64,000 nt of DNA from assembly GCA_000004985.1 (NCBI GenBank), contig GG738853.1. One strand, written 5' to 3'. The translations under genes were made by a program, and so were the position numbers. The DNA comes from Naegleria gruberi (taxonomy: Eukaryota). Below are positions 1 through 63,900 of the stretch, one piece after another (position 1 is the first letter of the stretch; each line of letters opens with the position of its first letter). The notes beneath the pieces were generated by a model that was given only the letters and a program-made list of their open reading frames with translations, made no database searches and was not told the origin of the DNA.

Positions 1-77
1 GATCACTTTCATTAACCCCACAAGTTTATTATTTTAATTCATCATATTCATCCAGTTCATTACAATATTTATATTCC

Positions 78-17299: not shown

Positions 17300-17319
17300 T
17301 ATTATGTTTAAAATTATTT

Positions 17320-18462: not shown

Positions 18463-18582
18463 AACTATTTCAAATTTAATTTTATTACATTTTCAATACA
18501 TACAATACTTTTAATACATATGATTCAGATTACAAAATATATAAATAAATATATAAACACATAATAATAAATATATAAAATA

Positions 18583-26447: not shown

Positions 26448-26497
26448 TTCAGTGCATTTTTTTAAAAAAATCTTTACAATAAAATTATTTTTTATTA

Positions 26498-27004
26498 TCA
26501 TAATATTATCATCAATATTATCATTAACATATTATTATTATTAGATATAATATTATTATTATTTTCAATATTAATAGTAAAATCATCATGATAATAAGGA
26601 CCAAATAAATCTCTAAATAAAGCATATGAACATAATTTAGTAGTATAATATGTTTTTAAATAAAAATTAGATAATGGTAATGATATTTGATAAAATAAAA
26701 ATCCAAATGTTAATCCAGTTGATATTTGTGTTAGAGTATTAATATATTTATTAGATATCTTTTTAAATGATTTTTGAAATATAAATAAAGATGAAAATGT
26801 TCCGATTATTGAAAATGGATATTTAATTAATGTTGAATATCCATCTTGTGGTATTTTAATCATTAATGATGTTAAATAGGCTCTTTTTGTATATTTATAT
26901 TTACTATTATTATTATTATTATTATTATTGGATGATGATGATGGTATTGTTGTTGTTATTGATGATGATTTGAGTTGTTGTTGTGTAGTTGAATTATTTT
27001 CCAT
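26498..27004 (-). CDS. Hypothetical 168-aa ORF with two hydrophobic segments; either a separate gene or a 5' exon of the PQ-loop gene
   Basis: ORF with a poly-Asn tract. Its start is only 55 bp downstream of the PDE stop and its stop overlaps the PQ-loop ORF by 4 nt in another frame. Confidence 0.3.
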   Translation of the reverse strand: MENNSTTQQQLKSSSITTTIPSSSSNNNNNNNNSKYKYTKRAYLTSLMIKIPQDGYSTLIKYPFSIIGTFSSLFIFQKSFKKISNKYINTLTQISTGLTFGFLFYQISLPLSNFYLKTYYTTKLCSYALFRDLFGPYYHDDFTINIENNNNIISNNNNMLMIILMIIL

Positions 27005-27059
27005 TTTTTATTATTGAATTATGAAAAGATAAATTGATTGTGTGTGTTTATTATTTATA

Positions 27060-29939
27060 TTATAAATCTTCTTCTTCAAGAGGATCTGAATGTTTATGTT
27101 CTGTTGTTGTGGTATTGTGATTAGAATGTTCAAGACTTGAATCATTCTTTTCCTCATTATCATTATGAGGTGGTTGTTCAATGGTAATATCTTGATGTTT
27201 TGTATCCTCAGCCTTAACAATGTGATGTTCCTTCTTTGTATCATCAATTTCATGAACATCATTGAGAGGACTATCATCTCTATTAGTTTTAATAATTTTA
27301 TAATTCTCTTCATATTGAATAATATTTAAACCAGTTTGTTGATGAACATGTTCCAACACTAAAGGTAAAGTTAATTGAGTTGATTTTGTTAAATCTTGCA
27401 TTGTTAAATGATTGGATTGAATTTGTTTCTTAATTAATTCAGTTTCTTCAGGTTTAAAATCAAATAATAAATTAAATAGAGGCATTACAATAAATTCAAT
27501 AAAACCAGTTTGACATTTTGGTACATTTTGAGTATTTCTATCCATAAAAGGTGAAATATCAATTTTTAAATTTCTTTCAGTATCACCCTGATTATAAAAT
27601 TCAGTCATTACTCTATTAACCCATTTACCATAAACTTGATATGATTTTGTTGGATTTGAAACATCTGCACATTTAATTATTACTTTTAATAAGGCTAATA
27701 AACATTCCTTTCTTTCAATACTAAACTTTTCCTTATTAAATATATCATTGGATTTAATTTGACCAACAATTAAGAAATGTTGACTTATATCTGTTGCTAA
27801 TATCATTTCAACTATTAATTCTCTTAAATATTCATATTGATTACTTGACATATTTACAAATATATTAAATTCTTCCTTTCCTAGTATTTTAAATAAATTA
27901 TAACAATGAAAATTTTCTAAAATTGAACGATCATTAAACATGATTGCCTTTTCACTTCTTGTTTTCTTTTCAAATAAATTTGTAACTCCTGGATGACAAA
28001 CATCATGAGCTAAACATGCAACAACTAATGCTAATATATCTAATGGTACTAGATTGAAATTTAAATTATTTTCTAATGTAAAATTATTAAATTGAATAGA
28101 TTGAGATGATTGTGACTGTGATTGTGTTGATTGTGATTGAGATTGAGGTGAATGAGGTGAAGATGGACTTGTATGTGAAAAACATTTAACATATAAACTA
28201 ATAGCAGTTTGAACAACATCAGTTGCATGACAATTATTATGATATGGATTATTAAAATAATTAGATTCTACTTGTTTTAAGAATTTCTTCAAAGTACCAA
28301 TTGGTATATTCAATGGTCCAATTAAATCAAATGTTTGAAATATATATAAACATGTATAATATAATGGTTCACCTTCTGCAATCTTATTAAATTCAAATAC
28401 ATCAAATTTAAAATAATCCAATAAATTTTCTTTTAAATATTCCTTAACTTTCAATGGAATATCATCCTTAGGTACAATTGCTAATGAATCTTTGGCACTC
28501 TTTCTACCTATTGAACTCATTTCTTTTAAATAATTTGTAAATACTAATGCTTTAGTATATGCCTTAATACGTTTCTTCCATGATAAATCTGTACTATCTT
28601 CAACAAGTGATCCATGTAATACTTCAGATGATAACCATTTTTGTGTTTCAGAATCATGTTCATCTGATATTAAAATATCTTTAACAGTTGATTTAACTCC
28701 CATATTATGTGATGATGCTTTTGATACTAATAAACTTGCTAATGGTGATTTTGTTGAATTGGTGGCTGTTGGATCTGTTAAAATTAATTCAATTCTTGAA
28801 ACTAATTGTCTCACTTCATCATTTTCATGAGCTTTTAAAGAAGATATCAATTCAGTTAAATTACTACTAGTAGCACCACCTTTAGAATGATGATCATTAG
28901 ATACACTTGCTGTTATTGGTTGTGATGGTGGAGCTAAATCTTCTGGTGTAATTGGAGTATGTGGATCATCTTCAATTTTCTTAATATCATCACCCAGAAA
29001 TCCATCCTCTTCTTCATTAACATCTTGATTTGATGATCTTTGAGAAGATAAATGTAAAACTTCAACAGTTAAATTCTTTTCAGATTCTTGTTTTAATTTT
29101 AATTCCAAACTATGTTGTCTTTCTAAATCATCCTTCTTTTCAGAATCAAATTTTTGTTTCTGCAATTTTGAATATTTTGTAATCATCATAAAAGTATCTC
29201 TAATGTTAATATCAATATTATGTTTTAGAGGATATAAATGTAATGCAATTGTAATAACTTTTCCAACATCATTTTTCAATTTTTGGAAAACTTCAATTGA
29301 TTCATCTGGTTGAGGTTCAATTGTTAATTCTGAATTAAGAACACAATTTTGAACTGATAGAATAAATAAAGATAATTGTTCCTTTTCATTCGATGGACTA
29401 TCTTCAAATACCATAAATTTATCTTGATGAATACTTTCAGCATCTCTAATATGATAATAAAACTTATCTAAACCATCAGATAGAGAATAAATAACAATAT
29501 TCTTATCTACATTTGAAAATACACAAAACATAAAATCACTCTCCATTAATTGATGAGTGTTATAAGCAATTACCTCATCCATTCTATATAATACTCTCAT
29601 TAAATCTGTTTCCTTATCTTGATGTAAATCTTTACATGTTATATATCTTAGTGATTTTCCTTTTGGTATTTCAACTATAACAGAAGATTCAAAGGCTTCA
29701 TTGGATGAAGTGGTATCTTCCTTCTTTTCTTCTGCTTCATCCTTTATATTTGAAATTGGTTGAACAAGTGTAGATTGTGCTTTTTCATCCCTTGTTGATC
29801 GTTCTTGATGTGCTATTGTTGTAGTTGCTGATTTCCCCACATCTTGTGGTACATCATTGTCTTTATAACGATCATGACTATTTTGCTGAGGTTGAACACT
29901 ATTTGTTGTTGCACATCCAGCTGCATTACCCATTTTCAA
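27060..29939 (-). CDS. Class I 3',5'-cyclic-nucleotide phosphodiesterase with a roughly 480-aa N-terminal region; probable start is MGNAAGC (Gly2 myristoylation-type)
   Basis: YHNNCHATDVVQ and HDVCHPGVTNLF metal-binding signatures (HNxxH, HDxxH), with a catalytic helical core in the C-terminal half; single ORF. Confidence 0.75.
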   Translation of the reverse strand: MKMGNAAGCATTNSVQPQQNSHDRYKDNDVPQDVGKSATTTIAHQERSTRDEKAQSTLVQPISNIKDEAEEKKEDTTSSNEAFESSVIVEIPKGKSLRYITCKDLHQDKETDLMRVLYRMDEVIAYNTHQLMESDFMFCVFSNVDKNIVIYSLSDGLDKFYYHIRDAESIHQDKFMVFEDSPSNEKEQLSLFILSVQNCVLNSELTIEPQPDESIEVFQKLKNDVGKVITIALHLYPLKHNIDINIRDTFMMITKYSKLQKQKFDSEKKDDLERQHSLELKLKQESEKNLTVEVLHLSSQRSSNQDVNEEEDGFLGDDIKKIEDDPHTPITPEDLAPPSQPITASVSNDHHSKGGATSSNLTELISSLKAHENDEVRQLVSRIELILTDPTATNSTKSPLASLLVSKASSHNMGVKSTVKDILISDEHDSETQKWLSSEVLHGSLVEDSTDLSWKKRIKAYTKALVFTNYLKEMSSIGRKSAKDSLAIVPKDDIPLKVKEYLKENLLDYFKFDVFEFNKIAEGEPLYYTCLYIFQTFDLIGPLNIPIGTLKKFLKQVESNYFNNPYHNNCHATDVVQTAISLYVKCFSHTSPSSPHSPQSQSQSTQSQSQSSQSIQFNNFTLENNLNFNLVPLDILALVVACLAHDVCHPGVTNLFEKKTRSEKAIMFNDRSILENFHCYNLFKILGKEEFNIFVNMSSNQYEYLRELIVEMILATDISQHFLIVGQIKSNDIFNKEKFSIERKECLLALLKVIIKCADVSNPTKSYQVYGKWVNRVMTEFYNQGDTERNLKIDISPFMDRNTQNVPKCQTGFIEFIVMPLFNLLFDFKPEETELIKKQIQSNHLTMQDLTKSTQLTLPLVLEHVHQQTGLNIIQYEENYKIIKTNRDDSPLNDVHEIDDTKKEHHIVKAEDTKHQDITIEQPPHNDNEEKNDSSLEHSNHNTTTTEHKHSDPLEEEDL

Positions 29940-30107
29940 ACTATTAAAACCTAGAGTGAGTTAGAAGTTATATATTATTTTGATGATAATAATGTTGATA
30001 ATATACAGTGGTTGCAATACGTTTGAATCCACTGAAAGAAGAGACTCTGCAAAGCCTTTAAACTTGTTTTTTTAATCTCTACATATTTGTAACGATTTGT
30101 AGTTTGT

Positions 30108-30118
30108 GGGCGGGAAAA
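30108..30118 (-). promoter_or_regulatory. TTTCCCGCCC (E2F-consensus-like) element about 170 bp upstream of the PDE gene in gene orientation
   Basis: The plus strand reads gggcgggaaaa inside AT-rich intergenic DNA. Confidence 0.25.
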
Positions 30119-30635
30119 AATACTTTACTGTTTTGGATTGTCCACCTTGTACGTATTGGTCATTGAGAATCTATAAGGTACAACAATGTTTGAAATAGTC
30201 ATGGATTGGTTTGTCTCTCTAATCACATCTAGTTGTCACATCGATGAAGATCACTTGAACTTGCAACATTTAAAGAATGAAATCTCTCTATGGTTTTGGA
30301 TATTTAGCTAATTGATATAAACTCTCCAATTAATAACAACTGTTTAATAAATATCTGATGATGAGGTGGTACGTGGTTAATACTTGTTGATCTCAAAATT
30401 AAGAAAGGAGAGAGAAAATTATCAAATAATAAGTAGTGTTAAAGTTGTAAATGACCGTTTATATATTACACGAGTAATACCCATACCTAATTTGAAATTA
30501 TGAAAATATGATTAATAAGGTAATTTCTTAATAAATCAATATATAAAAAAATTAAAGAATTTTTAAGGTTCTTCCCCTCACTGATTATTTTCCATAATAT
30601 ATTCATCTATCATCATCATCACACTTAATAATTAA

Positions 30636-33243
30636 ATGATCAAAATATTAAATCCTCTATTACTATGCCTATTAATATTATTATTTCTAATTAATAATAT
30701 TAAATGTGCATCATTTACAACAAGTTATTCAATGAAAACATGTTCATTATCAAATTCATTATTATCCAATTCTAATAGTGATATATTTACATCTACATCT
30801 ACTACATCATCTGGATGTTCCTCATCATCAACATTTCAAATTGCCATTAAATTTGGAGATGAAGGAGTTCCACGTGATTTAAAACTCTCACTCTCAAAAG
30901 ATGATAAAATTCAAAATAGTTTAGATTCAACTGATTTTTATTCATTATCTAATGATATTATTATTAAAATAGAAAGAACTGATTTAAAAGTATCATATCC
31001 ATTAACTTTTATTAAAACATTAAAAAATTCATATGAAACTATTGAAACAAGTGTTAAAGATTGTAATAATTTAAATAATAATAATATGGATGAATATTCT
31101 AAATGTTGTGGACCCTATTATTATAATGATAATTCAAATTCAAATTTAAATTCAAATAAATATTATAATATTAGAAAATTAAATTATAATACTACCAATT
31201 ATAATCAATATGAAATTGGAAAATCACAATTACAATATTATATTCAATTTACAATACAACAATTAGATTTAAAATATAGTTTAATGTTATCAAATAATCA
31301 AAAATCATTAATTTTTAAAGGAATTAAAATTTCAATTGAAAATGATTTTTTAAAATTAACAAATTTAGATTTTTATTATTTAACACATTATTATATTATA
31401 CCTGAAAATCAATTAGATGGTTTTGTAATTCCTAAAAATTTAATTAATAAAGATATAAATAAAATTGGAATTACTAAAGAAATTTATAAAAATAATATTA
31501 ATTGTAATGATGAATTAGGTGATATAGTTACCATATTAGGAAATAATAATATATATGATCAATTTTATAGTTTTAGATCTAAATTTTTATTAAATTTAAT
31601 TGATGATTGTTATTTTAAAGATAAAAATCAAAATTTAATTAATTTTAATTGTGTAAAAACTATTAAAAATACAATTTTAATTAATTTACCATTTGGAGAT
31701 TCAAATTCATTTTCATTATTAAAATTAAAATCAAATCCAAATATAGTATCAAAAGGTTCTTTTAAAATTGATAATTATTTAATTTCTATTTATTTAGATA
31801 TTTTTAATAATATTGAATCTGATGGTTTAGTTGAAATTACTTTAATTGATTGTTGTATTTTACAAAATAATAATTTTATTTGTAATGTATGTTTTTTTAT
31901 TAATATATTTTTAATTTAATTATTTTTATATTTTATTTAATATTTTTATTTAATTATTAAATATAGAAAACATCAAGTCAATTTACTCAAAAAAGAATAT
32001 CAGGATATGATGTTAGTAAATTTATATTTAATACTAATTTAAATGTAAGTATTCATTAATTATTCAAAAATGATTCAAAAATAATTTATATAATAATTGT
32101 TATGATAATATTACATGATAATAATTTAATTAATATTATTTAATAATAATTTAATCTAATAATTAATATAAATAGATAAATTCAGGTAAATGTATATTTA
32201 ATATAGGTGATAATGGACAAGTATTATTTGAAGAAATTGTAACATTTCAATATCAATCCAATGATAATTCTAATAATAATAATAATAATATAATAATACC
32301 AATATCTAAAGATGAATCACAATGTAATATAATACCAACATCACCAACATCATCTTTATCTAATAGTAATATTAATAGTGTATTTAAATTAAATATAAAA
32401 ACTATAATTGAAAATAATAAAATTAAATGTGAATATGATTGTAATAATATAGATTTAGAATTTGATTATAATGAATATATATGTAAACCAATTAATTGTT
32501 CATCTAAATATTTAGATAAAATTATATTTAATTATAATTTATTAAAATGTGAAATACCAATACAATGTAATCAATTTACACAAATTTATAATTTACAAAA
32601 TAATACATGTATAAATATAGTAAATAATATATATAGTAATGATATATTAAATAGTATTGAAAATATTAATTTTAAAAATATTGAATGTAATAATGGTATT
32701 TTAAATAATTATTTTACATGTATTTGTAATGAAAATTATATTTCCTATTGGAATGATTCAATTTTAAATTTACAATTTTGTAAAATTAATTTATTATTAG
32801 AAAATAATTTACAAAATTTAAATATTAATACAATTTTAGATTATATTTTACAATTAGATTCATATATTCAAATTATTTTAATTATTATTTTATTTTTATT
32901 AATTTTAATTATTTTATTTTTATTTACTTTTACTTGTACTTGTTCATGTTATAAAAAATTAAATAGAAATTATTTTAATAAAATTAAATATGGTAAATTA
33001 GAAAAGAAATCTATTTTTAAATTATTATTTACTATTATATTTCAATGTGATTTTACAACAAGTGAATTTAATTTATCAGAAAAACATTTTAAAAAAATTA
33101 AAAAATTAAAATTAAAATATTTAAATAATAATAATATTGATAATATTGTTGATAACACATTAAATAATGATATTATTAGTAATAATAATAATAGTAATGA
33201 TAATGATATTAAATGTAATAATAATAATAATAATAACAATTGA
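30636..33243 (+). CDS. Cys-rich type I membrane protein with EGF-like modules. Exons are 30636..31886, 31967..32044 (optional, in-frame) and 32176..33243.
   Basis: Signal peptide MIKILNPLLLCLLILLFLINNIKCASF; GTATGT and GTAAGT donors; aatAG acceptors. Exon 3 was checked codon by codon to the TGA at 33241. It carries CEYDCNNIDLEFDYNEYICKPINC and CNNGILNNYFTCICNENY patterns, the TM segment IILIIILFLLILIILFLFTF and a poly-Asn tail. Confidence 0.6.
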
Positions 33244-33878
33244 TAATAATGGTGGTAATCAACAAGTGTCAACAAATAACATCAATAATTGTCATTCTCA
33301 TCGTAATCATATTGTTTATAAACATCATACAATTAATGATGGTGATGATGATAACACTCAATCATTTAAACAATTTGAAAAACAAGCCTTCAATTATAAA
33401 AAGGCTAGGAAATAAAATCTTTTTTAAAATCATTTTGACTGAAGTTTACAATGTTATTATTTTGACAAGATATTATTAATGTTCGTTGTCATTATGCAAA
33501 TTATGAAGTTTAATTGTTGTATTGTACCTTTCAATAATAATGTATGCATTTAATATTCCCTCTATTATTTACAGGAGGTAATGACAATGATTAACTAATG
33601 GATAATGAAGGTGTTATTGTTGTCAAGTCGGACCATTTTGAAAAAGAGAATTGAAAGTATCAACATCCATCTTGTCTCTTCGTCACACCACAACAAACAA
33701 CAAAAACTAATTGAAGGCTTTGGTTTACGTTGTGTGGTGTGTGAATTTTGCTGTGTGATGATGACTTGTTGTGCGTGTGGGCGCAGAAGCCGGAACAAAA
33801 ATAGCGGGAAGTGGTTGTAAATAAAGAGGTTGTAACGAAGGAGAAGGGTTGACTCTCCAAAAAAAAAACCTCGAAAAA

Positions 33879-35815
<1,937 letters not shown>

Positions 35816-55403: not shown

Positions 55404-56999
55404 TTATTTTGAATTATTCACAACAGCAATCTCAGTTGAGGTTGACTTCTTTTTAGTGGAAGCTCCACTATTATCTAAACTTGTAATACCAATTACATCA
55501 GGAATTACAGGATTACTTGATGGGAGAGTTGTTTGAGTAATTTGTAATGGTTGCTTAATTTCAGATGATTCAAGAGCAGCAGGTTGTTCAGTAGATGCTG
55601 TTATAGCAGCTTGTTCCTCTGGTTTTTCTTCTGGTTTCTTTTCTTCTGTTGGTTTTTCTCCTTCAGGTGCAGGTTGTTCAGATGTTTGTTCTGGTGCATT
55701 TGGTGGTGGATGATAGAACCATGTTGGAGTTAATGAAACTTTAAGAGCTTCCCAAAGAGCAAATCCAGCATCATGTCGAACTTTTTGATTGGACAAAATT
55801 CCAGTAACAAACACTTCAGCATGTTGTTGAACATTTTGATCATCCATTACATTGTGAACAGTGTGCATTCCCAATTCTGATCCACTTTGTTTTACAACAT
55901 CATATAAAATTACAGAGGCAAATAGGTCTGCAACATGTTGTCTGAAAGCTTCATCTTTAAGTGCATTATTCAATAAAATAACCAAGTGATCTTTTGTTTC
56001 TGGTTTATCAATAATTTTCCAAGCAAATTCTGAAGCTACTTGTATAGTATATTCGTCTCGTAAAAGGTATAACGCTATTCTTTCTTTAGCAAATTGTGAA
56101 ACATATTCTTGAGTGATTGGATCTTGAAGAACTTGTAATAAAAGAGTAACTAGTAATTGTTGAGTTTCCTTTCTAGAAATTAAATCTTTCAAAAAATTGA
56201 CAGCATGTTCAGTAGTCTTTGCATCACTTAATACTTGTTGAACTACTGCCTTACTGAGTACTTCTGCACTCATTTGAACACTTTCTGATCCTAAAGATCT
56301 AGAGGCCACATCAGCACCATGTTGACTGAAGAAATTCTTAATATCTTCACTAAATAAGAAAATGAAAACAGCAAGACCAAGTGATGTTGTAACTAAAACT
56401 CTAAATGTTGAATAACCTCTTCTCTTTAACATCATATCCAATTCATTGGCTAAATTTCTAATTTTTTGTGTGTAAAAGTGATGTTCAGGATTGACCACAG
56501 CAGGAGGAACAGGATCACGAATTTGTGATGTCGGATTAGTAACAATTGGTTGTTGTTGCTGTGTTTCACCAATATTAGATTCTGTTATTGGTGGTGGTGT
56601 TGTTGTTGTTGATGTGGTTGGTGGTGTTGTTGTAGATGATTCATTCGTAGATGATGGTGATGTAATTTGTTCATCAACATTTGTTTTGATCTTTTCTTCT
56701 TCAAGAGGTGTAGAATTCACTTCTAAAGGCTTTTCTGTATTATTGTTAGATTTACTATCATCATTAGATAAATTTGATGAAGTAAAAGCAGGTTGTTTCT
56801 TTCTTGCTGAATTGACAATACAAATATGAAAGCCTTTTCTATTAATCATGTTCGGAACATTGAAATCACATAATGATGATTTCAAAGATCCTCCAAATCG
56901 CCCTCCTCCAACAATTGGACGATGAATTATCAATGATGAAGAAAAACTTGGAGCTGATTTCAATTTTCTTGCTAAGAATCGTGCGGCAAGTTTTTTCAT
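55404..56999 (-). CDS. Hypothetical single-pass membrane protein with a basic presequence-like N-terminus (possibly mitochondrial), 531 aa
   Basis: MKKLAARFLARKLKSAPSFSS..., a Thr/Pro linker, the TM segment VLVTTSLGLAVFIFLF, then a helical domain. Confidence 0.45.
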   Translation of the reverse strand: MKKLAARFLARKLKSAPSFSSSLIIHRPIVGGGRFGGSLKSSLCDFNVPNMINRKGFHICIVNSARKKQPAFTSSNLSNDDSKSNNNTEKPLEVNSTPLEEEKIKTNVDEQITSPSSTNESSTTTPPTTSTTTTPPPITESNIGETQQQQPIVTNPTSQIRDPVPPAVVNPEHHFYTQKIRNLANELDMMLKRRGYSTFRVLVTTSLGLAVFIFLFSEDIKNFFSQHGADVASRSLGSESVQMSAEVLSKAVVQQVLSDAKTTEHAVNFLKDLISRKETQQLLVTLLLQVLQDPITQEYVSQFAKERIALYLLRDEYTIQVASEFAWKIIDKPETKDHLVILLNNALKDEAFRQHVADLFASVILYDVVKQSGSELGMHTVHNVMDDQNVQQHAEVFVTGILSNQKVRHDAGFALWEALKVSLTPTWFYHPPPNAPEQTSEQPAPEGEKPTEEKKPEEKPEEQAAITASTEQPAALESSEIKQPLQITQTTLPSSNPVIPDVIGITSLDNSGASTKKKSTSTEIAVVNNSK

Positions 57000-57109: not shown

Positions 57110-58825
57110 TTAATCTTTCAAAGATGTAATGAAGGATGCAAATTCTGTATTGGAATTTTTCAATCTTTCGAATAAATCGGTCATGTCAATCAGACAATGT
57201 TGTTGAATTTTGTGAAATAGATTGGCAGGTGGTTTTTCAGTTAGTTGGGAAGTTATTTCAGAATTACATTGTTCAATTTTTGGAATGTTGAGCTCTAGGG
57301 GACTATTAATTGATAAGTACACTTGTAAAATGTGATTTGCAATCTTTTTTCTGTTTTTGGTTGACCTTTTGTATCTTTGAATATCTTTCCAACATTGTAA
57401 ACTCTCAGTGCAATAACTTCTTCTTGCAAAATCCAACATTATTTTAAACATCTTCTTATTTTTCAAAACTTTTTCAATATTTGATTCATTACTTTCATTG
57501 GAATTCAATTTTGTGTAATCGAAATAAATTGATCGAATTACTGGTATTGTACAACACATAAATAATTCAAAATACATGTAACCCCAAATGAAAAACCCAT
57601 AGGGAACATAATAATCTACCAATTCAGATATTACCTCAATACTTCCACATATAATAAATAATATTGCTGAGAGTAATTGAACTATGGTTACAATAAATGA
57701 TTCCTTCTTAATTCCCCACGTATCCTTATCTGCCTTAACACACAATGCAAGAAATATCAATTCCAAAATGACATAGCCAACTACCTCCAATCCAATAGTT
57801 AGAACAGTATAGAAAGTCATTGAACATCCATGTCTGAATTCAAACATACTCGATTCAACCACAAATATTCGATTGTTAGAATTGGAATTGAGTGCTTCAT
57901 CAATTCCTCCAAGAATGGCCCAAATAATAAATCCAAATATAAATGAACATAAATAAACTGTTCCCATAAATTTTGTACTGACTAGAAAATTGTAAATTTG
58001 TAATTTTCTCATTTCCTTTTTTAGAGAAGCCATATCTTTAACATCAGCAGCTGACCATGTTGTTGAAATAGTGTCATTATCTAAATCATCAGTACTGGCA
58101 CTAGATGTTCTATTAGATGAACCTCCATCAGAATGATATGATGAATTTTCAACTGGTTGTTGATGCTCATTATTTCCTTTGATAGTATTGGAAACTTCTT
58201 GTAAATTGACTCCATGTACTTGAAATGAATCCATTTTTGTAATGACAAGTTCTGCTCCACTATTTGGTGGTAAGCTTTCAATAGATTCCAATGTTAATTG
58301 TTGATCCACTAATTCATGTTTCTTTGATTCTGAATCAATTGTATTCGATTCAAATAGTTTCGTCTTGGTTAAATTAATCTTGTACATGAAGAAAGCTCTC
58401 ATAAATCTAAATATTAATGGCAATGCAATCGCCTGTGGGAATGTAAAGAAGCCAATTGTCATCAAACCACATGGAAATGTCTTGCTCGACACTATTCTCC
58501 TCAATGTCAACACAACAACAAACCAAATCGAAGCTCCCAAAGTAAAAAACAAATAAACTGGATTCCTAGCACTAACATAACTACTATTCCTCTTCCATAT
58601 TACTCCCAACAATGAAAAAACCAGTGTTATCAAATAAACTATTAGAAACGTTAATGTAATTGCGAAGGAAAAATAAGTGTCTGGACAAAGTCCATAATTT
58701 AAAGTTGCATTTGATGATTCCCTGCTCCAGGGCGTATTCATAAGTGAAGGATGACATCTACTAGCGTTTTGATTGTTATTATTGATTAATTGAAGAACAG
58801 AGAAGAGATTGTTAAATGGCGACAT
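57110..58825 (-). CDS. Seven-transmembrane protein with a C-terminal RGS domain (7TM-RGS architecture, as in plant RGS1)
   Basis: Seven hydrophobic helices (three, then a long loop, then four). The C-terminal MFKIMLDFARRSYCTESLQCWKDIQRYKRS...IANHILQVYLSINSPLELNI matches the RGS fold consensus. Confidence 0.6.
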   Translation of the reverse strand: MSPFNNLFSVLQLINNNNQNASRCHPSLMNTPWSRESSNATLNYGLCPDTYFSFAITLTFLIVYLITLVFSLLGVIWKRNSSYVSARNPVYLFFTLGASIWFVVVLTLRRIVSSKTFPCGLMTIGFFTFPQAIALPLIFRFMRAFFMYKINLTKTKLFESNTIDSESKKHELVDQQLTLESIESLPPNSGAELVITKMDSFQVHGVNLQEVSNTIKGNNEHQQPVENSSYHSDGGSSNRTSSASTDDLDNDTISTTWSAADVKDMASLKKEMRKLQIYNFLVSTKFMGTVYLCSFIFGFIIWAILGGIDEALNSNSNNRIFVVESSMFEFRHGCSMTFYTVLTIGLEVVGYVILELIFLALCVKADKDTWGIKKESFIVTIVQLLSAILFIICGSIEVISELVDYYVPYGFFIWGYMYFELFMCCTIPVIRSIYFDYTKLNSNESNESNIEKVLKNKKMFKIMLDFARRSYCTESLQCWKDIQRYKRSTKNRKKIANHILQVYLSINSPLELNIPKIEQCNSEITSQLTEKPPANLFHKIQQHCLIDMTDLFERLKNSNTEFASFITSLKD

Positions 58826-59003
58826 TTTTTTCTTGAATGAACTTGTGATGACAATTCCCTAAATGGATGACAGCTAGTCCAAATTAGTATATTTATGTCA
58901 ATTTGCCATTATAAAACATACGACAATGGTTGTAAAGATATTAATAATATATTAATATATTTACAGTTAATTTTATTGAATTGAAATTGCTTCAACTCTT
59001 GCT

Positions 59004-59228
59004 TTATTTTCCTTCATCTGAAAGAGAAGCTTTAAGTATTTCCAAATCAAGCGAACCCTTTGGAAATCTGAAAGATTTAGAGAATTGGAAATGACCATTT
59101 TCTGTTTTCTTTTCAGCACTAATTGTAATCAAATCACCAAGTGAATTTTCCTTAATCTTTACCTCAATATCTTTCTTTTCAAACACATCTCTTGGAATGT
59201 TATTAATATCAAGTGAGAGCTCATCCAT
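59004..59228 (-). pseudogene. Truncated duplicate of the small heat-shock (alpha-crystallin domain) gene at 61044
   Basis: About 255 bp (59008-59262) is roughly 97% identical to 61108-61362. The ORF stops early (…SLSDEGK*) and lacks the upstream region. Confidence 0.55.
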
Positions 59229-59615
59229 CTTGATTAATAGTTCTAATCACAAATGGAAACGGACTTTTCGTCAACCTGTATGAAAGAAATGATCAAGACT
59301 TTCAGGGGATATGGTATTAAAGAGTAAGCGATTTACAGATAAAATCTCATTGGCGAAAATCGTAGTTATCATTCGCATTGTAAAAATGGCAAAAGAAGAA
59401 CAATGAACAGTAGAATGGGATTGACCAAATATGTATTCAATACCAAAGTTGTTGTTTACAATGAGATTGTTCTAAATAGTTTCAAATATGTTTAGTATAA
59501 TTAGCAAGGTACGACTAGATTACAACAGTTTGCCTTCCTTTTTAGAGAAACAAAATAATCATCGGTTGACATTTACTTATCAAAAAAACTGAGCAAACTA
59601 TTTACCATCGTTTTT

Positions 59616-60155
59616 GTGGTCGGCATTTCTTTGTGTTGCGCCACTCTACTTGCAGCCTGTTCCTTCTTCATTGCTTCAATAGTTGTCAATTCAACTGCAG
59701 ATAAATTACAGGAAGAATTCTTCGACATTGTCAATGTTAAGATTACAGCCAAAATTGTCAATGTTTTCAATAATTGTAAAACCTATAGAAGAGAGACAGA
59801 ATGTTATCCAATTGTTCGAATGGTTGATTTCTATCCATTCCAAATAGAAAATGTTACAAACCCAAACAGCAATAACACAGTTACGAGAGCAACAACCATG
59901 GCCACATCCAATCTTTCAAAACTAAAAGTGGATGAGATTATTTCTCTCTACATTGAAGTGAATACAACACCATCCACAAGTTCTAAAATTACATGGAAGA
60001 AGGTAATGTATGAAAAACCTGGAAATCCAAAATATGATGAATATCAATACTACAAGGCCGTTTTTAGCCCACTTCTTTATATCATGCTGGCTTTATTTTG
60101 TCTTACTTTTATTTTCTTGTTTCTTCTTTTTGGTCTTATGTTTGCAAGCAGATAA
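59616..60155 (+). CDS. Non-ATG ORF with N- and C-terminal hydrophobic segments in a compositionally atypical island; doubtful gene
   Basis: GC-ending codons (gtc, ggc, gcc, ctg) atypical for this genome; NxT sites; no start codon. Confidence 0.2.
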   Translation: MVGISLCCATLLAACSFFIASIVVNSTADKLQEEFFDIVNVKITAKIVNVFNNCKTYRRETECYPIVRMVDFYPFQIENVTNPNSNNTVTRATTMATSNLSKLKVDEIISLYIEVNTTPSTSSKITWKKVMYEKPGNPKYDEYQYYKAVFSPLLYIMLALFCLTFIFLFLLFGLMFASR

Positions 60156-61043
60156 GACCATTAAATTAGAGTGTATTCGGAATCAGGGTTGGTCTTTTTT
60201 GATGAATTAAAGTCTTGATCACAATAAAGGTGATTCATTATGCATAATTACTTATCCTATAATCTAGATAATCCGAGTGTCCTATTTCATTAATTATTCC
60301 TTCTATTTCTTCTGAAATAAATTTGACAATTCCGTTGTTCAATGTTTAGATGAACTTTAACCGCCAACAATTTAACAATATTTTAACTTAAAAAAAGTCA
60401 TTGTTTCATGTTCGATCCAGCTGAAGAGCTACGAAAAATCATCCAACGACTGAACCAAAGGCTAAAAAAAGGAAACTCCATGATGTAATTAATAACCATG
60501 AATTTTTAGAACAAATGAAAGAATAATTGGGATGCACTATTGGTGAGATAATCAACTATTCCAAAAATATTAATTCTACAAGGGAATAATTTAATGACCT
60601 TTTAATAGAACTTATTTTGCATATGAAAGACCCGTCGATTAAGACTAGATGGTCAGTCGAAGAATGTATTACACGCTTAAAATCCCAATACAAAACAGAG
60701 CTAAAGACAAGGGTTGATCAAAAGGAAAAGTATAGGGATAGGGTGGATAAATTTAAAAAAACAAATCTATTGTTGATAAAGCACTATTTCAATAAACTTG
60801 ACAGAAACAGAACATTCTATGATTTCACCATCATCCAATGGTCCAAAAGTTTACTGTCTTTCCGTATAAAGGGACAATTTGGTTACAGCAGTTGGCAAAT
60901 ATTGTTAAAAGGATATCAATGAACAAGATTGAAAGCAAGTGTTTCTACTAAGGTAGTTTCAGAAATTGTGGAAATTTACGAAACCGTTGAACCAATTGAC
61001 CCAAATACGAAATTGGTTGTACAGACAATAGTTTCAGTTAATG

Positions 61044-61337
61044 TCATTCAATTGAAATTTCTTTAACTCTTTCTTTAATTTCTGGTTCATCAATTCTTGG
61101 AATTTTCACACTCAAAGTTCCTTCATCTGAAAGAGTTGCTTTAACTTTATCCAAATCAAGCGAACCCTTTGGAAATCTGAAAGATTTAGAGAATTGGAAA
61201 TGACCATTTTCTGTTTTCTTTTCAGCACTAACTGTAATCAAATCACCAAGTGAATTTTCCTTAATCTTTACCTCAATATCTTTCTTTTCAAACACATCTC
61301 TTGGAATATTATTAATATCAAGTGAGAGCTCATCCAT
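61044..61337 (-). CDS. Small heat-shock protein alpha-crystallin domain (HspG-like family)
   Basis: MDELSLDINNIPRDVFEKKDIEVKIKENSLGDLITVSAEKKTENGHFQFSKSFRFPKGSLDLDKVKATLSDEGTLSVKIPRIDEPEIKERVKEISIE matches the ACD consensus (G.F.R.F.LP...D...V.A.L.DGVL.V..PK). Confidence 0.65.
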   Translation of the reverse strand: MDELSLDINNIPRDVFEKKDIEVKIKENSLGDLITVSAEKKTENGHFQFSKSFRFPKGSLDLDKVKATLSDEGTLSVKIPRIDEPEIKERVKEISIE

Positions 61338-61950
61338 CTTGATTAATAGTTCTAATCACAGATGAAATTGGACCTCTACGTCTCAATGGCTTATCAGTAG
61401 ATGTTTCTCTCATTGAAGAACTTTCACTTGATGATGAAGATGAAGAGCTGATACTCTTTTGAGCATTATTATTCATAGAATTGAAAGAATTGGTATAATC
61501 TTCCCACCATTGATGATCATCAAAGAGGGAAGGCAACATGTTTGATCTTCTCATCATGTTATTCATTCTTCTTCTCATGGAATTGAAAGATTCATCAAAG
61601 TTAGAAAAAGGTGATGATTGAAACCATTGATTATCAAACCAATCATTCTGATATCCTTGGTTCAATCCTTTCATAACATTTTTCCAAATATTCTTCTTTG
61701 ATTTCTTCCTTGATAACTTTTTAGATTTCTCTTCTGTTTTAATATTTAATTGAGGATTTGATGAGGAAGAGTATTTACCAGATTGATCATGATCTGGTAA
61801 TGGTGTTGTTGATTGTCCCTCCTTCTCAACACGTACCTCTTCCTCTGCTGTTATAAGGGAAATATCCAAACAATAAACAATGAAGAGTACTGCAAGTAGA
61901 CTTGAAATGATTACTGTTGTTTTGAATTGTTGTTGATTAATCTTCATCAT
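61330..61950 (-). CDS. ORF with an N-terminal signal/anchor and a W/F-rich region like a sHSP N-terminal arm. Its stop overlaps the sHSP ORF start by 8 nt in another frame, so it is possibly the frameshifted 5' part of the same gene.
   Basis: MMKINQQQFKTTVIISSLLAVLFIVYCLDISL..., WFDNQWFQSSPFSNFDESF, ending RRRGPISSVIRTINQDG*. Confidence 0.4.
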   Translation of the reverse strand: MMKINQQQFKTTVIISSLLAVLFIVYCLDISLITAEEEVRVEKEGQSTTPLPDHDQSGKYSSSSNPQLNIKTEEKSKKLSRKKSKKNIWKNVMKGLNQGYQNDWFDNQWFQSSPFSNFDESFNSMRRRMNNMMRRSNMLPSLFDDHQWWEDYTNSFNSMNNNAQKSISSSSSSSSESSSMRETSTDKPLRRRGPISSVIRTINQDG

Positions 61951-62640
61951 TATGATTTTCTTTTTGAGAATTGATATTCTATGAAGCAGTTGATGATCAA
62001 TTTATTGTACTTCGGAATAAAACACGTATTATTGTTGTCTATTTTTAATACTTAACATTATGATTGGTAGGAGTAGAAAATCTCGAGTCTGGAACTTTGT
62101 TCGACAACTAAAAATAAACATTTTATTTAATTCATTTAAAAGGAAATTCTAAATTTCCCTTCCCTCCTTCTAAATTTGCTTGTTTTGTTGGATTCATTGT
62201 ATGTAGCAAGTGGTTGAGAAGGAGAGATTTGAGTGGATGAAGTTGTTGGTTTGGTTGAGAGAAGGATTTTGGTTTTCTACCCCTCTTCTTCTTGGTTGCT
62301 GTTAATCAATCCATTTGTTATTTAAATTCCGGTCTGACTTTTCCGGTCTGGTTTTTACTTCTAATTTCGGAATTAAAAATAGTCTATTTTTAATTTTTAA
62401 AATTTTATTTTTGGATGAGAGACCGGAAAATCTGGTCATTGACTCTGGCTTTTCTACTCCTACCTTATGATTATTTCTTATTCCGAAGTGAACAAAATTG
62501 GTCAATTAACAATTAAGGAATTATTAAAGTTCCGTAAGTTTTTAAATTAATTGCAGAGGAAGATACGCGGTGTTAAAATGAGAGGGTGGTAAAAACCTCC
62601 CAGCGATGGCTGTACAAAAAAACTCGGCTGATAATTAATA

Positions 62641-62671
62641 CCTGCAGTATTTTAAAAATAAATACTGCAGG
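62641..62671. repeat. Perfect hairpin cctgcagtatt-(9 nt)-aatactgcagg
   Basis: 11-bp exact inverted repeat with a GC core in AT-rich DNA. Confidence 0.6.
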
Positions 62672-62824
62672 CACCTATTATTCCATGCCGGAAGATTATG
62701 TATTATTATGTATCAAATGATTATTATTTAATACAAATTGTTTGCTTCATTATGATTAAACATTAAACTAGGTTTTATTAATAATAAATACTGTTAATTT
62801 ATTCAACAAATAGTAATATATATA

Positions 62825-62948
62825 AATAAACGTTAATATTTCAATAAACGTAAATAAACTTAAAAAGACGTTACTATTTGTAATTATTTGATATAAATAA
62901 ACGTAAATAAATGTAAATAAACGTAAATAAATGTAAATAAATGTAAAG
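62825..62948. repeat. Minisatellite, 10-bp unit AAATAAA(C/T)GT, about 5 clean and several degenerate copies
   Basis: aaataaacgt aaataaatgt aaataaacgt aaataaatgt aaataaatgt. Confidence 0.7.
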
Positions 62949-62961
62949 TCATGAAAATAGT

Positions 62962-63851
62962 TTATTTTTCTTCTGCAAAAAGCTTTTTCAATTCTTCTTT
63001 GATAGCAGCGTGTTCTATTTTATCTTGTATTTCTAGTTTCTCTCGTCTTTTAGTGATATAGGAAGATACTTTAATAGATAATGCCTCTATTTCACCGAAT
63101 TGGTTTTCTAACAATTCCATCTTTTTCTTATTTTCTGTAATAATCTTTTGATAAAATTGCATACAATACTCATAAAAACCTTCTTCTAGCTCAACTTTTC
63201 TTTTTAAAGCATCTCTTTCTTCTCTATCTGAAAGAATATCTGTTAATTCTTGTAAAAGTAATGAAGTTTCTGACATAGTATAATCGTTTTGTTCATTATC
63301 TGTCTTGATAGCTTTAACAGCTTTCTTTGATAATTCCTTCACATTAATTGCATCTACTTTTCTTTTGGTTGATGGAGATCTATTTACCAAAGTTTCGTCA
63401 CTGGTTGGAATTATGGTAGTGGTACTTGGTTTGTTAAGAAGAACTGTTGTTGGCGGGCTGCAATCAATAATAAATGACTCATTAACTTTAGAACTTTTCA
63501 TAGGAGTTCTTTCTATAATTGAAACTTGCTTATCATCATCACTTCTCCACAAATAATTACTTAAATTGCACATTCCTGAATCAATAAAGCATTCTACAGC
63601 ATCATTAATATCGCTGGAATACAAATTTCATTTGATGACTCCTTCTTATTCATTGAATCTTTTAATAAAGTTACTAGTGTTTCCGATTTAGAAAAGTGTA
63701 TTTGATTATTGATACAATTAACAATACACTTTCTAATCGATGAAGTTGTTGTTGTTGTTGTTGATGTTGTTGGGGTTGATGTTGTTGTTATTGATGAAGT
63801 TGTGTTTTGATGGTCCTGTTTTTGTTTTTTGCGTTTGGGTTGTTTAAGCAT
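62962..63851 (-). CDS. Hypothetical protein read as two overlapping ORFs (63594-63851 and 62962-63624) in different frames; poly-Thr tract and C-terminal coiled coil
   Basis: MLKQPKRKKQKQ...TTSTTTTTTSS... then ...EERDALKRKVELEEGFYEYCMQFYQKIITENKKKMELLENQFGEIEALSIKV; the 31-nt overlap implies a frame break. Confidence 0.4.
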
Positions 63852-63900
63852 TTTTTTGACCCTGCAATAAATTTTTTATTTTTACTGCAGGGTCAAAAAA
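63852..63900. repeat. Near-perfect hairpin ttttttgaccctgca-(loop)-tgcagggtcaaaaaa
   Basis: 15-bp arms with one mismatch in the extension; the core gaccctgca / tgcagggtc is related to the 62641 hairpin core cctgcag. Confidence 0.55.

What the first reader, a model, noticed from the sequence alone, without database searches (positions are those of the whole stretch)
59004..61950. Tandem duplicated sHSP segment flanking a codon-atypical 1.8-kb island; upstream ORF overlaps the sHSP start
A 255-bp piece of the alpha-crystallin gene (ATG region plus ACD) is repeated about 97% identical 2.1 kb upstream in the same orientation (truncated copy). The DNA between the copies is less AT-rich and contains non-ATG ORFs with G/C-ending codons (ccg, tcg, cgc, agg), like a decayed insertion. 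In the intact copy, an ORF with a signal/anchor and a W/F-rich arm ends 8 nt into the ACD ORF in another frame. This suggests a secretory-pathway sHSP whose reading frame is broken, or mis-sequenced.
Basis: seen in the sequence. Interest (0 to 1): 0.5.

Follow-up and report, generated by a model that had tools for sequence, protein, structure and literature searches.

The report
Frameshifted Naegleria secretory sHSP plus partial duplicate
This is a Naegleria gruberi gene for a signal-peptide-bearing small heat-shock protein whose reading frame is broken by a 5-base deletion, with an older decayed partial copy 2.1 kb downstream that shares the same deletion; this is ordinary gene decay, not a new system.

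Summary
The window is the Naegleria gruberi NEG-M reference: two neighbouring ORFs are 100% identical to NEG-M proteins on a 695,587-nt scaffold.

**Observation.** The repeat is real: 256 nt, 245/256 identical, offset 2109. The 8-nt ORF overlap is also real.

**What the two ORFs are.** ORF 61330-61950(-) and ORF 61044-61337(-) are one sHSP gene. Its parts are a signal peptide, a W/F-rich N-terminal region, an alpha-crystallin domain and a C-terminal ISI motif. A net 5-nt deletion at 61332/61333 splits it.
- An intact 302-aa version, 98% identical (NAEGRDRAFT_76695), lies on a separate 8,148-nt scaffold.
- The N. lovaniensis orthologue is a single uninterrupted exon.

**The second copy.** Copy A (58918-59268) is an older partial duplicate. 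It has no N-terminal region, lacks 38 nt, and its flanks are 83% identical to copy B. Its central 211 nt, including the deletion site, differ from copy B at only 2 positions. That points to gene conversion and argues against a random sequencing error.

**The "island".** It is single-copy in the window and its GC is unremarkable (0.32, 72nd percentile). The G/C-ending-codon ORF scores as non-coding. A 198-codon ORF without a 5' ATG remains unexplained.

**Verdict.** An ordinary disrupted allele or paralogue plus a pseudogene fragment. The "atypical inserted island" does not.

The parts
61044..61950 (-). Disrupted sHSP gene (copy B), positional orthologue of N. lovaniensis P0002 and near-identical to N. 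gruberi NAEGRDRAFT_76695 (P0001). There is no gene model for it in the protein collection.
   Evidence: tblastn of P0001: aa 1-205 match at 98% in frame -2 (61950-61333), and aa 207-302 match at 98% in frame -3 (61334-61047). Partial synteny with L001. The exact products are absent from the collections.
61330..61950 (-). ORF1, 206 aa: signal-peptide-like N-terminus, acidic EEEVRVEKEGQ motif, W/F/M-rich N-terminal region, and strand beta2 of the ACD (SSVIRTINQ). It ends at a TGA created by the frameshift.
   Evidence: The AlphaFold model of P0001 places strand 195-203 just before the break.
61846..61950 (-). Predicted signal peptide or anchor (aa 1-35, MMKINQQQFKTTVIISSLLAVLFIVYCLDISLITA|EEE)
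   Evidence: It is the only 19-aa window with mean hydropathy above 1.6. Homologues end this segment with VKA or ALA before a conserved EEE[IV]xVEKEGQ. No dedicated signal-peptide predictor was available, so cleavage is inferred.
61329..61337 (-). Frameshift site. The window reads GAT GGA TGA G. P0001 has G-K-N-E here, so 5 nt are missing between the G205 codon (61335-61333) and the E208 codon (61331-61329). The ATG of ORF2 (61337-61335) arises by chance in the new frame.
   Evidence: Coordinate arithmetic on the two tblastn segments. Alignment of the homologues shows a conserved D/E-G-K/N loop. The P0001 DNA could not be obtained.
61044..61337 (-). ORF2, 97 aa: alpha-crystallin domain from beta3 onward, plus a C-terminal extension ending in EISIE (the I-x-I motif is at 61050-61058)
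   Evidence: PF00011 E = 8e-10. Best solved-structure sequence match is the HSPB1 core domain, 4mjh. The fold of intact P0001 matches the HSPB1 and alphaB-crystallin ACDs.
58918..59268 (-). Copy A: partial, decayed duplicate of the 3' 40% of the gene. It contains the last ~15 codons of ORF1, the same frameshift site, most of the ACD, and about 110 nt of 3' flank. It has no N-terminal region. The 38-nt deletion removes the last beta strand (TLSVKIPRIDEP) and shifts the frame, so the ORF stops after 74 aa (59004-59228).
   Evidence: Pfam HSP20 scores only 16.5 bits, below threshold.
59041..59251 (.). Putative gene-conversion tract, paired with 61150-61360. There are 2 mismatches in 211 nt here, against 22 in the 120 aligned nt outside. 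The tract covers the frameshift site.
   Evidence: Mismatch list. Fisher exact p = 7e-9.
59269..61004 (.). The 'island' between the copies. It is single-copy with ordinary GC. It holds a 198-codon stop-free ORF (59559-60155, +) with two hydrophobic segments, no 5' ATG and no homologues. It also holds a 101-codon TTG ORF (60617-60922, +) that looks non-coding, and exon 1 of the JGI RGS model P0006 (59594-59728, -).
57110..58825 (-). Neighbouring 7TM-RGS gene, used to establish provenance
   Evidence: It is 100% identical to N. gruberi P0006 over about 430 aa, from residue 42 (AIALPLIF...) to the C-terminus. Pfam RGS E = 1e-10.

Best explanation
**What it is.** The locus holds one gene of a Naegleria-restricted family of small heat-shock proteins made with an N-terminal signal peptide. 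The family architecture is signal peptide, acidic motif, aromatic- and Met-rich N-terminal region, alpha-crystallin domain, and a C-terminal I-x-I tail.

**What broke it.** In this NEG-M scaffold a net 5-nt deletion lies in the loop between strands beta2 and beta3 of the crystallin domain. It shifts the frame and creates a TGA. The gene now reads as a 206-aa ORF (signal peptide plus N-terminal region, no functional ACD) overlapping a 97-aa ORF (ACD without targeting signal or beta2).
- Shown: the frame break, and its absence in every homologue.
- Inferred: this copy is a null allele or a young pseudogene. Function would be covered by the intact 98%-identical copy NAEGRDRAFT_76695 on an 8.1-kb scaffold (probably the other haplotype) and by the paralogue NAEGRDRAFT_53591.

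**The second copy.** An older, N. gruberi-specific partial duplicate of the gene's 3' part lies 2.1 kb downstream. It is dead: it has no 5' half and carries a 38-nt frameshifting deletion.

**How the two copies relate.**
- Shown: the centres of the two copies are almost identical, although their edges differ by about 17%.
- Inferred: a recent gene conversion of at least 211 nt that included the deletion site.
- Inferred, direction unresolved, about even odds: the deletion may have arisen in the dead copy and been pasted into the working gene.

**The DNA between the copies.** It is ordinary local sequence at a lineage-specific rearrangement, not a demonstrable foreign insertion.
For: **Provenance.** P0006 and P0010 (N. 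gruberi NEG-M, 695,587-nt scaffold) are 100% identical to window ORFs.

**One gene, not two.**
- Every homologue is continuous across the junction...RGPISSVIRTINQDGKNELSLDINNIPRD. N. fowleri P0005 breaks further downstream, inside the ACD.
- N. lovaniensis P0002 is a single 933-nt exon.
- tblastn of P0001 needs frames -2 and -3, both halves at 98% identity.
- The AlphaFold model puts the break between strands 195-203 and 206-214 of an ACD. That ACD matches HSPB1 and alphaB-crystallin.

**A real mutation.** Copy A has the identical GATGGATGAGCTC.

**Gene conversion.**
- 2/211 mismatches in the centre against 22/120 outside, p = 7e-9.
- The 23 nt upstream of copy A's ATG are non-coding in copy A, yet have no mismatch at all.

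**Lineage specificity of copy A.** The N. lovaniensis locus shows only one sHSP copy.

**Family restricted to Naegleria and close relatives.** A profile of the N-terminal region finds only 5 proteins at E <= 1e-10 among 1.84 billion representatives.

**Ordinary island.**
Against: - The DNA of the intact copy (P0001) could not be obtained. The size and position of the deletion are therefore deduced from protein alignment. Allele versus paralogue is undecided.
- No second, near-identical copy of the neighbouring RGS gene or the 531-aa gene is annotated on the 8.1-kb scaffold. That neither supports nor refutes allelism.
- Apart from the frameshift, copy B has no other disabling change, and both halves remain 98% identical to the intact protein. 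The event is therefore very recent, or the copy is still used in some way.
- No expression data were available.
- The 198-codon ORF in the island is far too long to be chance: P = 4.6e-8 per start, about 1.6e-4 expected in the window. It is not explained by this account.
Confidence: 0.72

Rival explanations
1. Assembly or sequencing artefact. The real copy B is intact. The consensus at 61329-61337 was corrupted, for example because reads from the near-identical tract of copy A or from another haplotype were merged into copy B.
For: - An intact 98%-identical protein exists in the same assembly on a small separate scaffold. This is the pattern expected when haplotypes or repeats are split or merged by an assembler.
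- The 211-nt near-identical tract could mislead an assembler.
- The deletion lies next to what is probably an A-run.
- A homologue in a long-read N. fowleri assembly shows a 1-nt A-run frameshift that is probably an error.
Against: - The difference is 5 nt, not the 1 nt typical of homopolymer errors.
- The same state is present at two loci whose unique flanks begin within about 30-190 nt of the site.
- The window otherwise matches the annotated NEG-M proteins perfectly.
- From my own recollection, unchecked here, NEG-M was assembled from long Sanger reads, which would span the tract.
Confidence: 0.13
2. The split gene is still expressed as one protein or as two useful ones. Possible routes are +1 ribosomal frameshifting at GGA-UGA-G, termination-reinitiation at the overlapping AUGGAUGA, or removal of a 22-nt GT..AG micro-intron (61359..61338) that restores the frame.
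For: - The 0-frame stop follows the shift site directly, as in antizyme and RF2-type +1 sites (established knowledge).
- The AUG of ORF2 lies 5 nt upstream of ORF1's stop codon.
- Removing 61338-61359 gives an open 294-aa frame.
- Neither half has decayed further.
Against: - No homologue has the frameshift at this site, so there is no conservation of a recoding site.
- The 116 nt around and downstream of the stop are not structured: z = +1.05, and 173 of 200 shuffles fold at least as well.
- The 22 nt encode the conserved V-I/V-K/R-T residues of predicted strand beta2.
- 22 nt is far below the NEG-M mean intron of 203 bp and below the 30-bp minimum used for N. fowleri (PMC8296547).
- A genuine intron in this window starts with GTAAGT and is very AT-rich.
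- The dead copy A carries the same sequence, so its preservation needs no function.
Confidence: 0.04
3. The island is a decayed foreign or mobile insertion that carried or caused the duplication.
For: - The interval between the sHSP gene and the next conserved gene differs from N. lovaniensis and N. fowleri, where AMP deaminase lies.
- Island ORFs have weak host-like codon usage: 0.07 and -0.06 against 0.40 +/- 0.12 per codon, and GC3 of 0.32-0.40 against 0.17 +/- 0.11.
- The 198-codon ORF has no homologue in the annotated Naegleria proteomes.
Against: - GC is ordinary for the neighbourhood.
- There is no other copy in 64 kb.
- No terminal inverted or direct repeats bracket it.
- No transposase, integrase or reverse-transcriptase domain was found.
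- The repeats that flank it are about 350 nt of gene sequence with different ages along their length, not target-site duplications.
- Poor codon scores equal those of background ORFs, so the sequence simply looks non-coding.
Confidence: 0.08

Closest known systems
NAEGRDRAFT_76695 (XP_002668391.1 / EFC35647.1, 'predicted protein', N. gruberi NEG-M, 302 aa)
   Same: 98% identical to both halves of the window gene. It has the same signal peptide, N-terminal region, ACD and EISIE tail.
   Different: - It is intact: it has K206-N207 where the window has the 5-nt gap.
- It differs by four further substitutions and one Glu indel.
- It lies on a separate 8,148-nt scaffold.
- Whether it is the other allele or a recent paralogue was not testable.
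Orthologues and paralogues annotated 'SHSP domain-containing protein': N. lovaniensis C9374_004885 (P0002), N. fowleri FDP41_006955 (P0005), N. gruberi NAEGRDRAFT_53591 (P0004)
   Same: Same architecture and conserved motifs: EEE[IV]xVEKEGQ, MRRRMNNM, LPSLFDDHQWWED, NIPRDVF.KKDIE, and I-x-I-E at the C-terminus. They are 40-42% identical overall by BLAST (35-48% in the alignments) and 62-74% in the ACD. P0002 lies in partly conserved synteny.
   Different: They are single continuous ORFs with no nearby partial duplicate. AMP deaminase, not an RGS gene, follows downstream.
Plant endoplasmic-reticulum class sHSPs (e.g. wheat TaHSP23.9, rice OsHSP23.2)
   Same: An sHSP with an N-terminal signal peptide directing it into the secretory pathway (PMC7069362). 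It has an ACD plus variable N- and C-terminal parts.
   Different: - There is no detectable homology outside the ACD. The Naegleria N-terminal region finds only Naegleria-type proteins.
- No K/HDEL-like C-terminus: it ends ...EISIE.
- Localisation in Naegleria is untested.
Metazoan HSPB1 / alphaB-crystallin core domains (PDB 4mjh, 2y22, 4m5t)
   Same: They are the best sequence and fold matches for the ACD. There is an I-x-I C-terminal motif, like the one that docks into the beta4/beta8 groove of a neighbouring ACD (established knowledge).
   Different: They are cytosolic, with no signal peptide and unrelated N-terminal regions. Identity is only 20-30%.
Pseudogene-templated gene conversion (e.g. 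human CYP21A1P to CYP21A2; established knowledge)
   Same: A dead neighbouring copy and a working gene share a short, almost identical tract. The tract contains a disabling small deletion and sits inside otherwise more diverged homology.
   Different: The direction of transfer is not established here. There are no population data.

Membership tests
Small heat-shock protein / alpha-crystallin family (Pfam PF00011 HSP20) | Alpha-crystallin domain detected above the curated threshold | tested here: met
   61044-61337(-): 39.2 bits against a cut-off of 20.8, E = 7.9e-10. Copy A scores only 16.5 bits, below the cut-off.
Small heat-shock protein / alpha-crystallin family (Pfam PF00011 HSP20) | Beta-sandwich ACD fold resembling solved sHSPs | tested here: met
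   The model of the intact homologue P0001 has pLDDT about 70-78 in the ACD. Foldseek top hits are HSPB1, Sip1, Hsp17 and alphaB-crystallin, E = 8e-5 to 1e-3, probability 1.00.
Small heat-shock protein / alpha-crystallin family (Pfam PF00011 HSP20) | C-terminal extension with I/V-x-I/V motif | tested here: met
   The window gene ends ...KEISIE. Homologues end SIAIE, MISIE and SINVE.
Small heat-shock protein / alpha-crystallin family (Pfam PF00011 HSP20) | N-terminal region, ACD and C-terminal extension encoded in one continuous reading frame | tested here: not met
   Frame -2 changes to frame -3 at 61332/61333 with a TGA at 61332-61330. The feature is met in P0001-P0004.
Small heat-shock protein / alpha-crystallin family (Pfam PF00011 HSP20) | ATP-independent holdase activity and oligomer formation | not testable with these tools
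   Needs biochemistry.
ER / secretory-pathway sHSPs (plant ER class) | Cleavable N-terminal signal peptide | tested here: inconclusive
   There is a single N-terminal hydrophobic segment (12-aa hydropathy 3.0-3.6) in all six family members. It is followed by small residues (VKA, ALA, ITA) and a conserved acidic motif. No signal-peptide predictor and no localisation data were available.
ER / secretory-pathway sHSPs (plant ER class) | C-terminal ER-retention tetrapeptide (K/HDEL-like) | tested here: not met
   All family members end in I-x-I/V-E.
ER / secretory-pathway sHSPs (plant ER class) | Common descent with the plant ER class beyond the ACD | tested here: not met
   The N-terminal profile finds only Naegleria-type proteins in 1.84 billion representatives.
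Pseudogene / null allele by frameshift | Disabling lesion relative to intact close homologues | tested here: met
   Copy B has a net 5-nt deletion. Copy A has the same deletion, plus a 38-nt deletion and loss of the 5' half.
Pseudogene / null allele by frameshift | Loss of expression or of full-length product | not testable with these tools
   No transcriptome or proteome access.
Spliceosomal intron (22-nt GT..AG, 61359..61338) | GT..AG ends and frame restoration | tested here: met
   Removal gives an open 294-aa frame.
Spliceosomal intron (22-nt GT..AG, 61359..61338) | Length and splice signals within the species' range, and sequence not conserved as coding | tested here: not met
   The NEG-M mean intron is 203 bp, and 30 bp is the minimum used for N. 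fowleri. The local intron starts GTAAGT. The 22 nt encode the conserved VIRTINQ of strand beta2. The orthologue has no intron.
Programmed +1 ribosomal frameshift (antizyme / RF2 type) | Shift site followed by a 0-frame stop codon | tested here: met
   GGA-UGA-G at 61335-61329.
Programmed +1 ribosomal frameshift (antizyme / RF2 type) | Conservation of the frameshift in homologues, and a stimulatory RNA element | tested here: not met
   Homologues are in-frame at this site. The RNA around and downstream of the stop has z = +1.05.
Mobile element / foreign insertion (for the island 59269-61004) | Terminal repeats, multiple copies, element-encoded protein, or deviant composition | tested here: not met
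   No bracketing repeats. No second copy in the window. No Pfam domain. GC at the 72nd percentile. Genome-wide copy number is not testable here.

The most novel reading that the evidence does not exclude
The frameshifted gene is not dead. Ribosomes would bypass the break by +1 frameshifting at GGA-UGA-G, or reinitiate at the overlapping AUG. The cell would then make either a full-length secretory sHSP or, from one mRNA, a secreted N-terminal fragment plus a cytosolic ACD-only chaperone. A milder version is also open: the deletion was copied into the working gene from its own dead fragment by gene conversion, which would make this a protist example of pseudogene-templated gene inactivation caught in a heterozygous state.
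Probability: 0.04. Interest if true: 0.55.

Novelty: new member of a known kind. Interest (0 to 1): 0.15.

Why it matters
**Practical value for annotation.**
- The NEG-M reference has no gene model for this sHSP copy.
- Its neighbour's model, the RGS protein P0006, wrongly borrows an exon from the "island" and treats the sHSP fragment as intron.
- Recognising a frameshifted allele or paralogue and a partial pseudogene fixes both problems.

**Biological value, which is modest.**
- The locus documents that Naegleria has its own family of sHSPs with a signal peptide. That would be a chaperone type for the secretory pathway, otherwise best known from plants.
- It gives a clean small example of gene conversion between a gene and its neighbouring dead fragment.

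Nothing here opens a long-standing question.

Tried and rejected
**Exact-product look-ups.** The 97-aa and 206-aa ORFs, the RGS ORF, P0001 and P0004 are not on record in the gene-position index. The DNA of the intact N. gruberi copy therefore could not be fetched. The listing of cluster members gave only accessions.

**Metagenome scans.** A protein-pattern scan and a DNA pattern spanning the deletion site with a 0-8 nt gap both found nothing.

**Test for allelism.**
- I searched the neighbouring ORFs for a second near-identical NEG-M protein on the 8.1-kb scaffold.
- The RGS and 531-aa ORFs returned only their 695-kb-scaffold proteins; the 220-aa ORF returned nothing.
- The result is inconclusive.

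**Heat-shock elements.** GAAnnTTCnnGAA with up to 1 mismatch gives 37 hits against 37 expected by chance, and none in the 600 nt upstream of the ATG. This says nothing about regulation.

**Candidate GT..AG introns bridging the frames.** Thirty-one combinations keep an open frame. All were rejected because the orthologue is intronless and the bridged residues are conserved.

**Processed (retro-) pseudogene origin for copy A.** Rejected: there is no poly(A) at its 3' end, and it lies in the same orientation 2.1 kb from its source.

**Remnant of the N-terminal coding region upstream of copy A.** tblastn with three homologues finds nothing beyond 59268.

**Literature.** No paper on Naegleria sHSPs turned up. 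The N. gruberi genome paper is not in the library.


Full report
**Where the window comes from**

The sequence is eukaryotic.
- The 571-aa ORF 57110-58825(-) is 100% identical, from residue 42 of the model to its end, to the N. gruberi protein P0006.
- The 531-aa ORF 55404-56999(-) is 100% identical over 481 aa to NAEGRDRAFT_78700.
- Both proteins are on a 695,587-nt contig.
- The window has one 50-N scaffold gap at 17834-17883.

So this is the Naegleria gruberi NEG-M reference assembly. That assembly has 33% GC, 1.7 exons per gene and a mean intron of 203 bp (PMC8296547).

**Checking the observation**

*The repeat is real.*
- 59009-59264 and 61118-61373 match at 245/256 positions, offset 2109.
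- The local alignment score is 237, against at most 14.5 for shuffled sequence.
- It is longer than reported. After a 38-nt gap in the lower copy (61080-61117 is missing), homology continues at 83% through 58957-59008 ~ 61028-61079.
- After 16 extra nt in the lower copy, it continues through 58918-58940 ~ 61005-61027, past the stop codon.

*The ORFs are as described.*
- ORF 61044-61337(-) carries a bona fide HSP20/alpha-crystallin domain: 39.2 bits, E = 8e-10.
- ORF 61330-61950(-), 206 aa, overlaps it by 8 nt in another frame.
- That ORF has a single N-terminal hydrophobic segment and a region with 4 W, 7 F and 2 Y in 65 residues.

*The claim about the intervening DNA does not hold.*
- Its GC is 0.322, against 0.287 +/- 0.053 for same-size windows (72nd percentile). 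The adjacent genes are at 0.29-0.34.
- The ORF with CCG, TCG, CGC and AGG codons (60617-60922) scores -0.06 per codon on a codon model built from the window's long ORFs. The 123 short background ORFs score -0.02 +/- 0.24, and the long ORFs score 0.40 +/- 0.12.
- So that ORF simply looks non-coding.

**What the two overlapping ORFs are**

*A hypothetical join finds continuous homologues.*
- A search with the two ORFs joined found five proteins, all Naegleria or Naegleria-like.
- The best is NAEGRDRAFT_76695 (P0001, 302 aa).
- In every homologue the signal-like N-terminus, the aromatic region and the ACD form one continuous protein. It reads ...RGPISSVIRTINQDGKNELSLDINNIPRDVF... across the place where the window breaks.

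*The window needs two frames to match.*
- tblastn of P0001 matches aa 1-205 at 98% in frame -2 (61950-61333).
- It matches aa 207-302 at 98% in frame -3 (61334-61047).
- Between the G205 codon (61335-61333) and the E208 codon (61331-61329) the window has 1 nt where P0001 has 6.
- That is a net 5-nt deletion. It creates the TGA at 61332-61330 and, by chance, an ATG in the new frame.

*Supporting evidence.*
- The N. lovaniensis orthologue P0002 is a single 933-nt exon. It lies in partly conserved synteny with the MCM gene and the 592/531-aa gene.
- An AlphaFold model of P0001 has moderate confidence (pLDDT about 70-78 in the ACD). It places the break in the turn between strands 195-203 and 206-214.
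- The modelled domain matches the HSPB1 and alphaB-crystallin cores.
- The protein ends in EISIE, the I-x-I motif typical of sHSP C-terminal extensions. This motif is conserved in the family.

**Why I think the break is real and how it relates to the second copy**

*Copy A is a dead fragment.*
- Copy A (58918-59268) begins only about 45 nt upstream of the break. It has no N-terminal region.
- The 38-nt deletion removes the last beta strand and shifts the frame. The ORF stops after 74 aa.
- N. lovaniensis has no such fragment in the locus examined.

*Copy A carries exactly the same GATGGATGAGCTC as copy B.*

*The mismatches between the copies are very unevenly placed.*
- There are 2 in the central 211 nt (59041-59251).
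- There are 22 in the 120 aligned nt outside. Fisher p = 7e-9.
- Copy A cannot be under selection, and the 23 nt upstream of its ATG are also identical.
- Purifying selection therefore cannot explain the pattern. A recent gene conversion over an older (about 17% diverged) duplication can.
- The tract includes the deletion site, so the deletion was copied from one copy to the other.
- The direction is open. A to B would be pseudogene-templated inactivation. B to A is equally compatible.

*Two loci sharing a 5-nt difference argues against a random sequencing error.* An assembly mix-up between the near-identical tracts, or between haplotypes, remains possible. I give it about 0.13.

**Alternatives for expression**

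*Micro-intron.*
- A 22-nt GT..AG segment (61359..61338) would restore the frame.
- However, it encodes the conserved VIRTINQ of strand beta2.
- It is far shorter than Naegleria introns.
- It lacks the GTAAGT seen at a genuine intron in this window.
- It is absent as an intron from the orthologue.

*+1 ribosomal frameshift at GGA-UGA-G.*
- It is formally possible.
- It is not conserved in any homologue.
- The RNA around and downstream of the stop is unstructured: z = +1.05.

Together I give these about 0.04.

**The family**

- A profile of the N-terminal 205 residues finds only five proteins at E <= 1e-10 among 1.84 billion cluster representatives. The N-terminal part is specific to Naegleria and close relatives.
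- All members start with a hydrophobic segment, followed by small residues and a conserved EEE[IV]xVEKEGQ motif. This is the look of a cleavable signal peptide, but it was not tested with a dedicated predictor.
- None ends in K/HDEL.
- Functionally the nearest known kind is the plant ER class of sHSPs, such as TaHSP23.9 (PMC7069362). There is no sign of common descent outside the ACD.
- N. gruberi keeps at least two intact members, P0001 and P0004. Losing this copy should be tolerable.

**The island (59269-61004)**

- It is single-copy in the window.
- It has no bracketing repeats and no Pfam domain.
- In N. lovaniensis and N. fowleri, AMP deaminase directly follows the sHSP gene. In N. gruberi that interval holds the island, copy A and an RGS gene. 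The region is therefore a lineage-specific rearrangement.
- One feature stays unexplained: a 198-codon stop-free frame at 59559-60155(+).
  - It has two hydrophobic segments and many N-x-S/T sites.
  - It has no ATG before codon 88, and weak codon usage (0.07 per codon).
  - It has no homologue in the annotated Naegleria proteomes.
  - Its length is very unlikely by chance: about 1.6e-4 expected in the window.
- The JGI model of the RGS gene (P0006) takes its first exon from the opposite strand of this ORF (59594-59728). It then splices over copy A into the middle of the RGS ORF.
- Since paralogues align over the whole 571-aa ORF, that model is probably wrong.

**Verdict**

This is a real but ordinary feature:
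- an unannotated, frameshift-disrupted copy (allele or recent paralogue) of a Naegleria-specific signal-peptide sHSP gene;
- an older partial pseudogene fragment;
- a gene-conversion tract linking the two.

Interest is low, and the value lies mainly in annotation. What could not be done is listed under the next steps. Above all, the 8.1-kb scaffold that carries the intact copy should be aligned to this window, and the reads and RNA-seq at the break should be inspected.

Noticed in passing
window 61989-62511: About 520-nt foldback or nested inverted repeat (arms 61994-62020/62478-62504 and 62066-62089/62441-62464), starting 40 nt upstream of the sHSP ATG. Folded as DNA it scores z = -6.1, with 0 of 100 shuffles as stable. 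It is single-copy in the window. It could be a MITE-like insertion in the promoter.
   Followed up: partly
window 57110-59728 (-): The reference gene model P0006 (RGS protein, 481 aa) takes exon 1 from 59594-59728 in the 'island' and splices over the sHSP fragment into the middle of the RGS ORF. The uninterrupted 571-aa ORF with its N-terminal membrane segments matches the paralogues P0007-P0009 over its full length. The model is probably wrong.
   Followed up: partly
window 59559-60155 (+): A 198-codon stop-free frame with hydrophobic segments at both ends and many N-glycosylation sequons. It has no ATG before codon 88, weak codon usage, no Pfam hit, and no homologue among the annotated Naegleria proteins. 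It is far too long for chance. It could be an orphan gene, an exon, or a recent relic.
   Followed up: partly
L002 3001-3900 (N. fowleri GCA_008403515.1, VFQX01000054.1): The N. fowleri orthologue P0005 is also frameshifted, inside the ACD. It reads GGAGAAAAAGAAAAACTG where N. lovaniensis has GGAGAAAAGAAGACTG. The other frame continues with an intact ...KVRSIAIE end. A 1-nt A-run difference is most likely a homopolymer error of that assembly.
   Followed up: partly
window 1-4000, 12000-14000, 16000-20000, 26000-34000: Patches of very low GC (0.18-0.26, against about 0.31-0.34 elsewhere). They hold several long ORFs of 417-466 aa with no Pfam match (78-1355, 1936-3336, 12296-13630, 18583-19836, 30636-31919). 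These are interleaved with ordinary genes: phosphodiesterase, asparaginase and a PQ-loop protein.
   Followed up: partly
window 62800-62960: Array with 10-nt period of AAATAAACGT / AAATAAATGT units in a stretch of GC 0.17, between the sHSP promoter region and the next ORF.
   Followed up: no
window 62631-62681 and 63852-63900: Two similar intergenic palindromes built on CCTGCAG...CTGCAGG. The stems are 20-22 nt at 82-95% complementarity, with loops of 7-9 nt.
   Followed up: no
window 62962-63851 (-): A 220-aa coiled-coil-like ORF and an overlapping 85-aa Thr-rich ORF upstream of the sHSP gene. The 220-aa ORF had no counterpart among the annotated Naegleria proteins returned by the search. The 85-aa ORF was not searched.
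   Followed up: no
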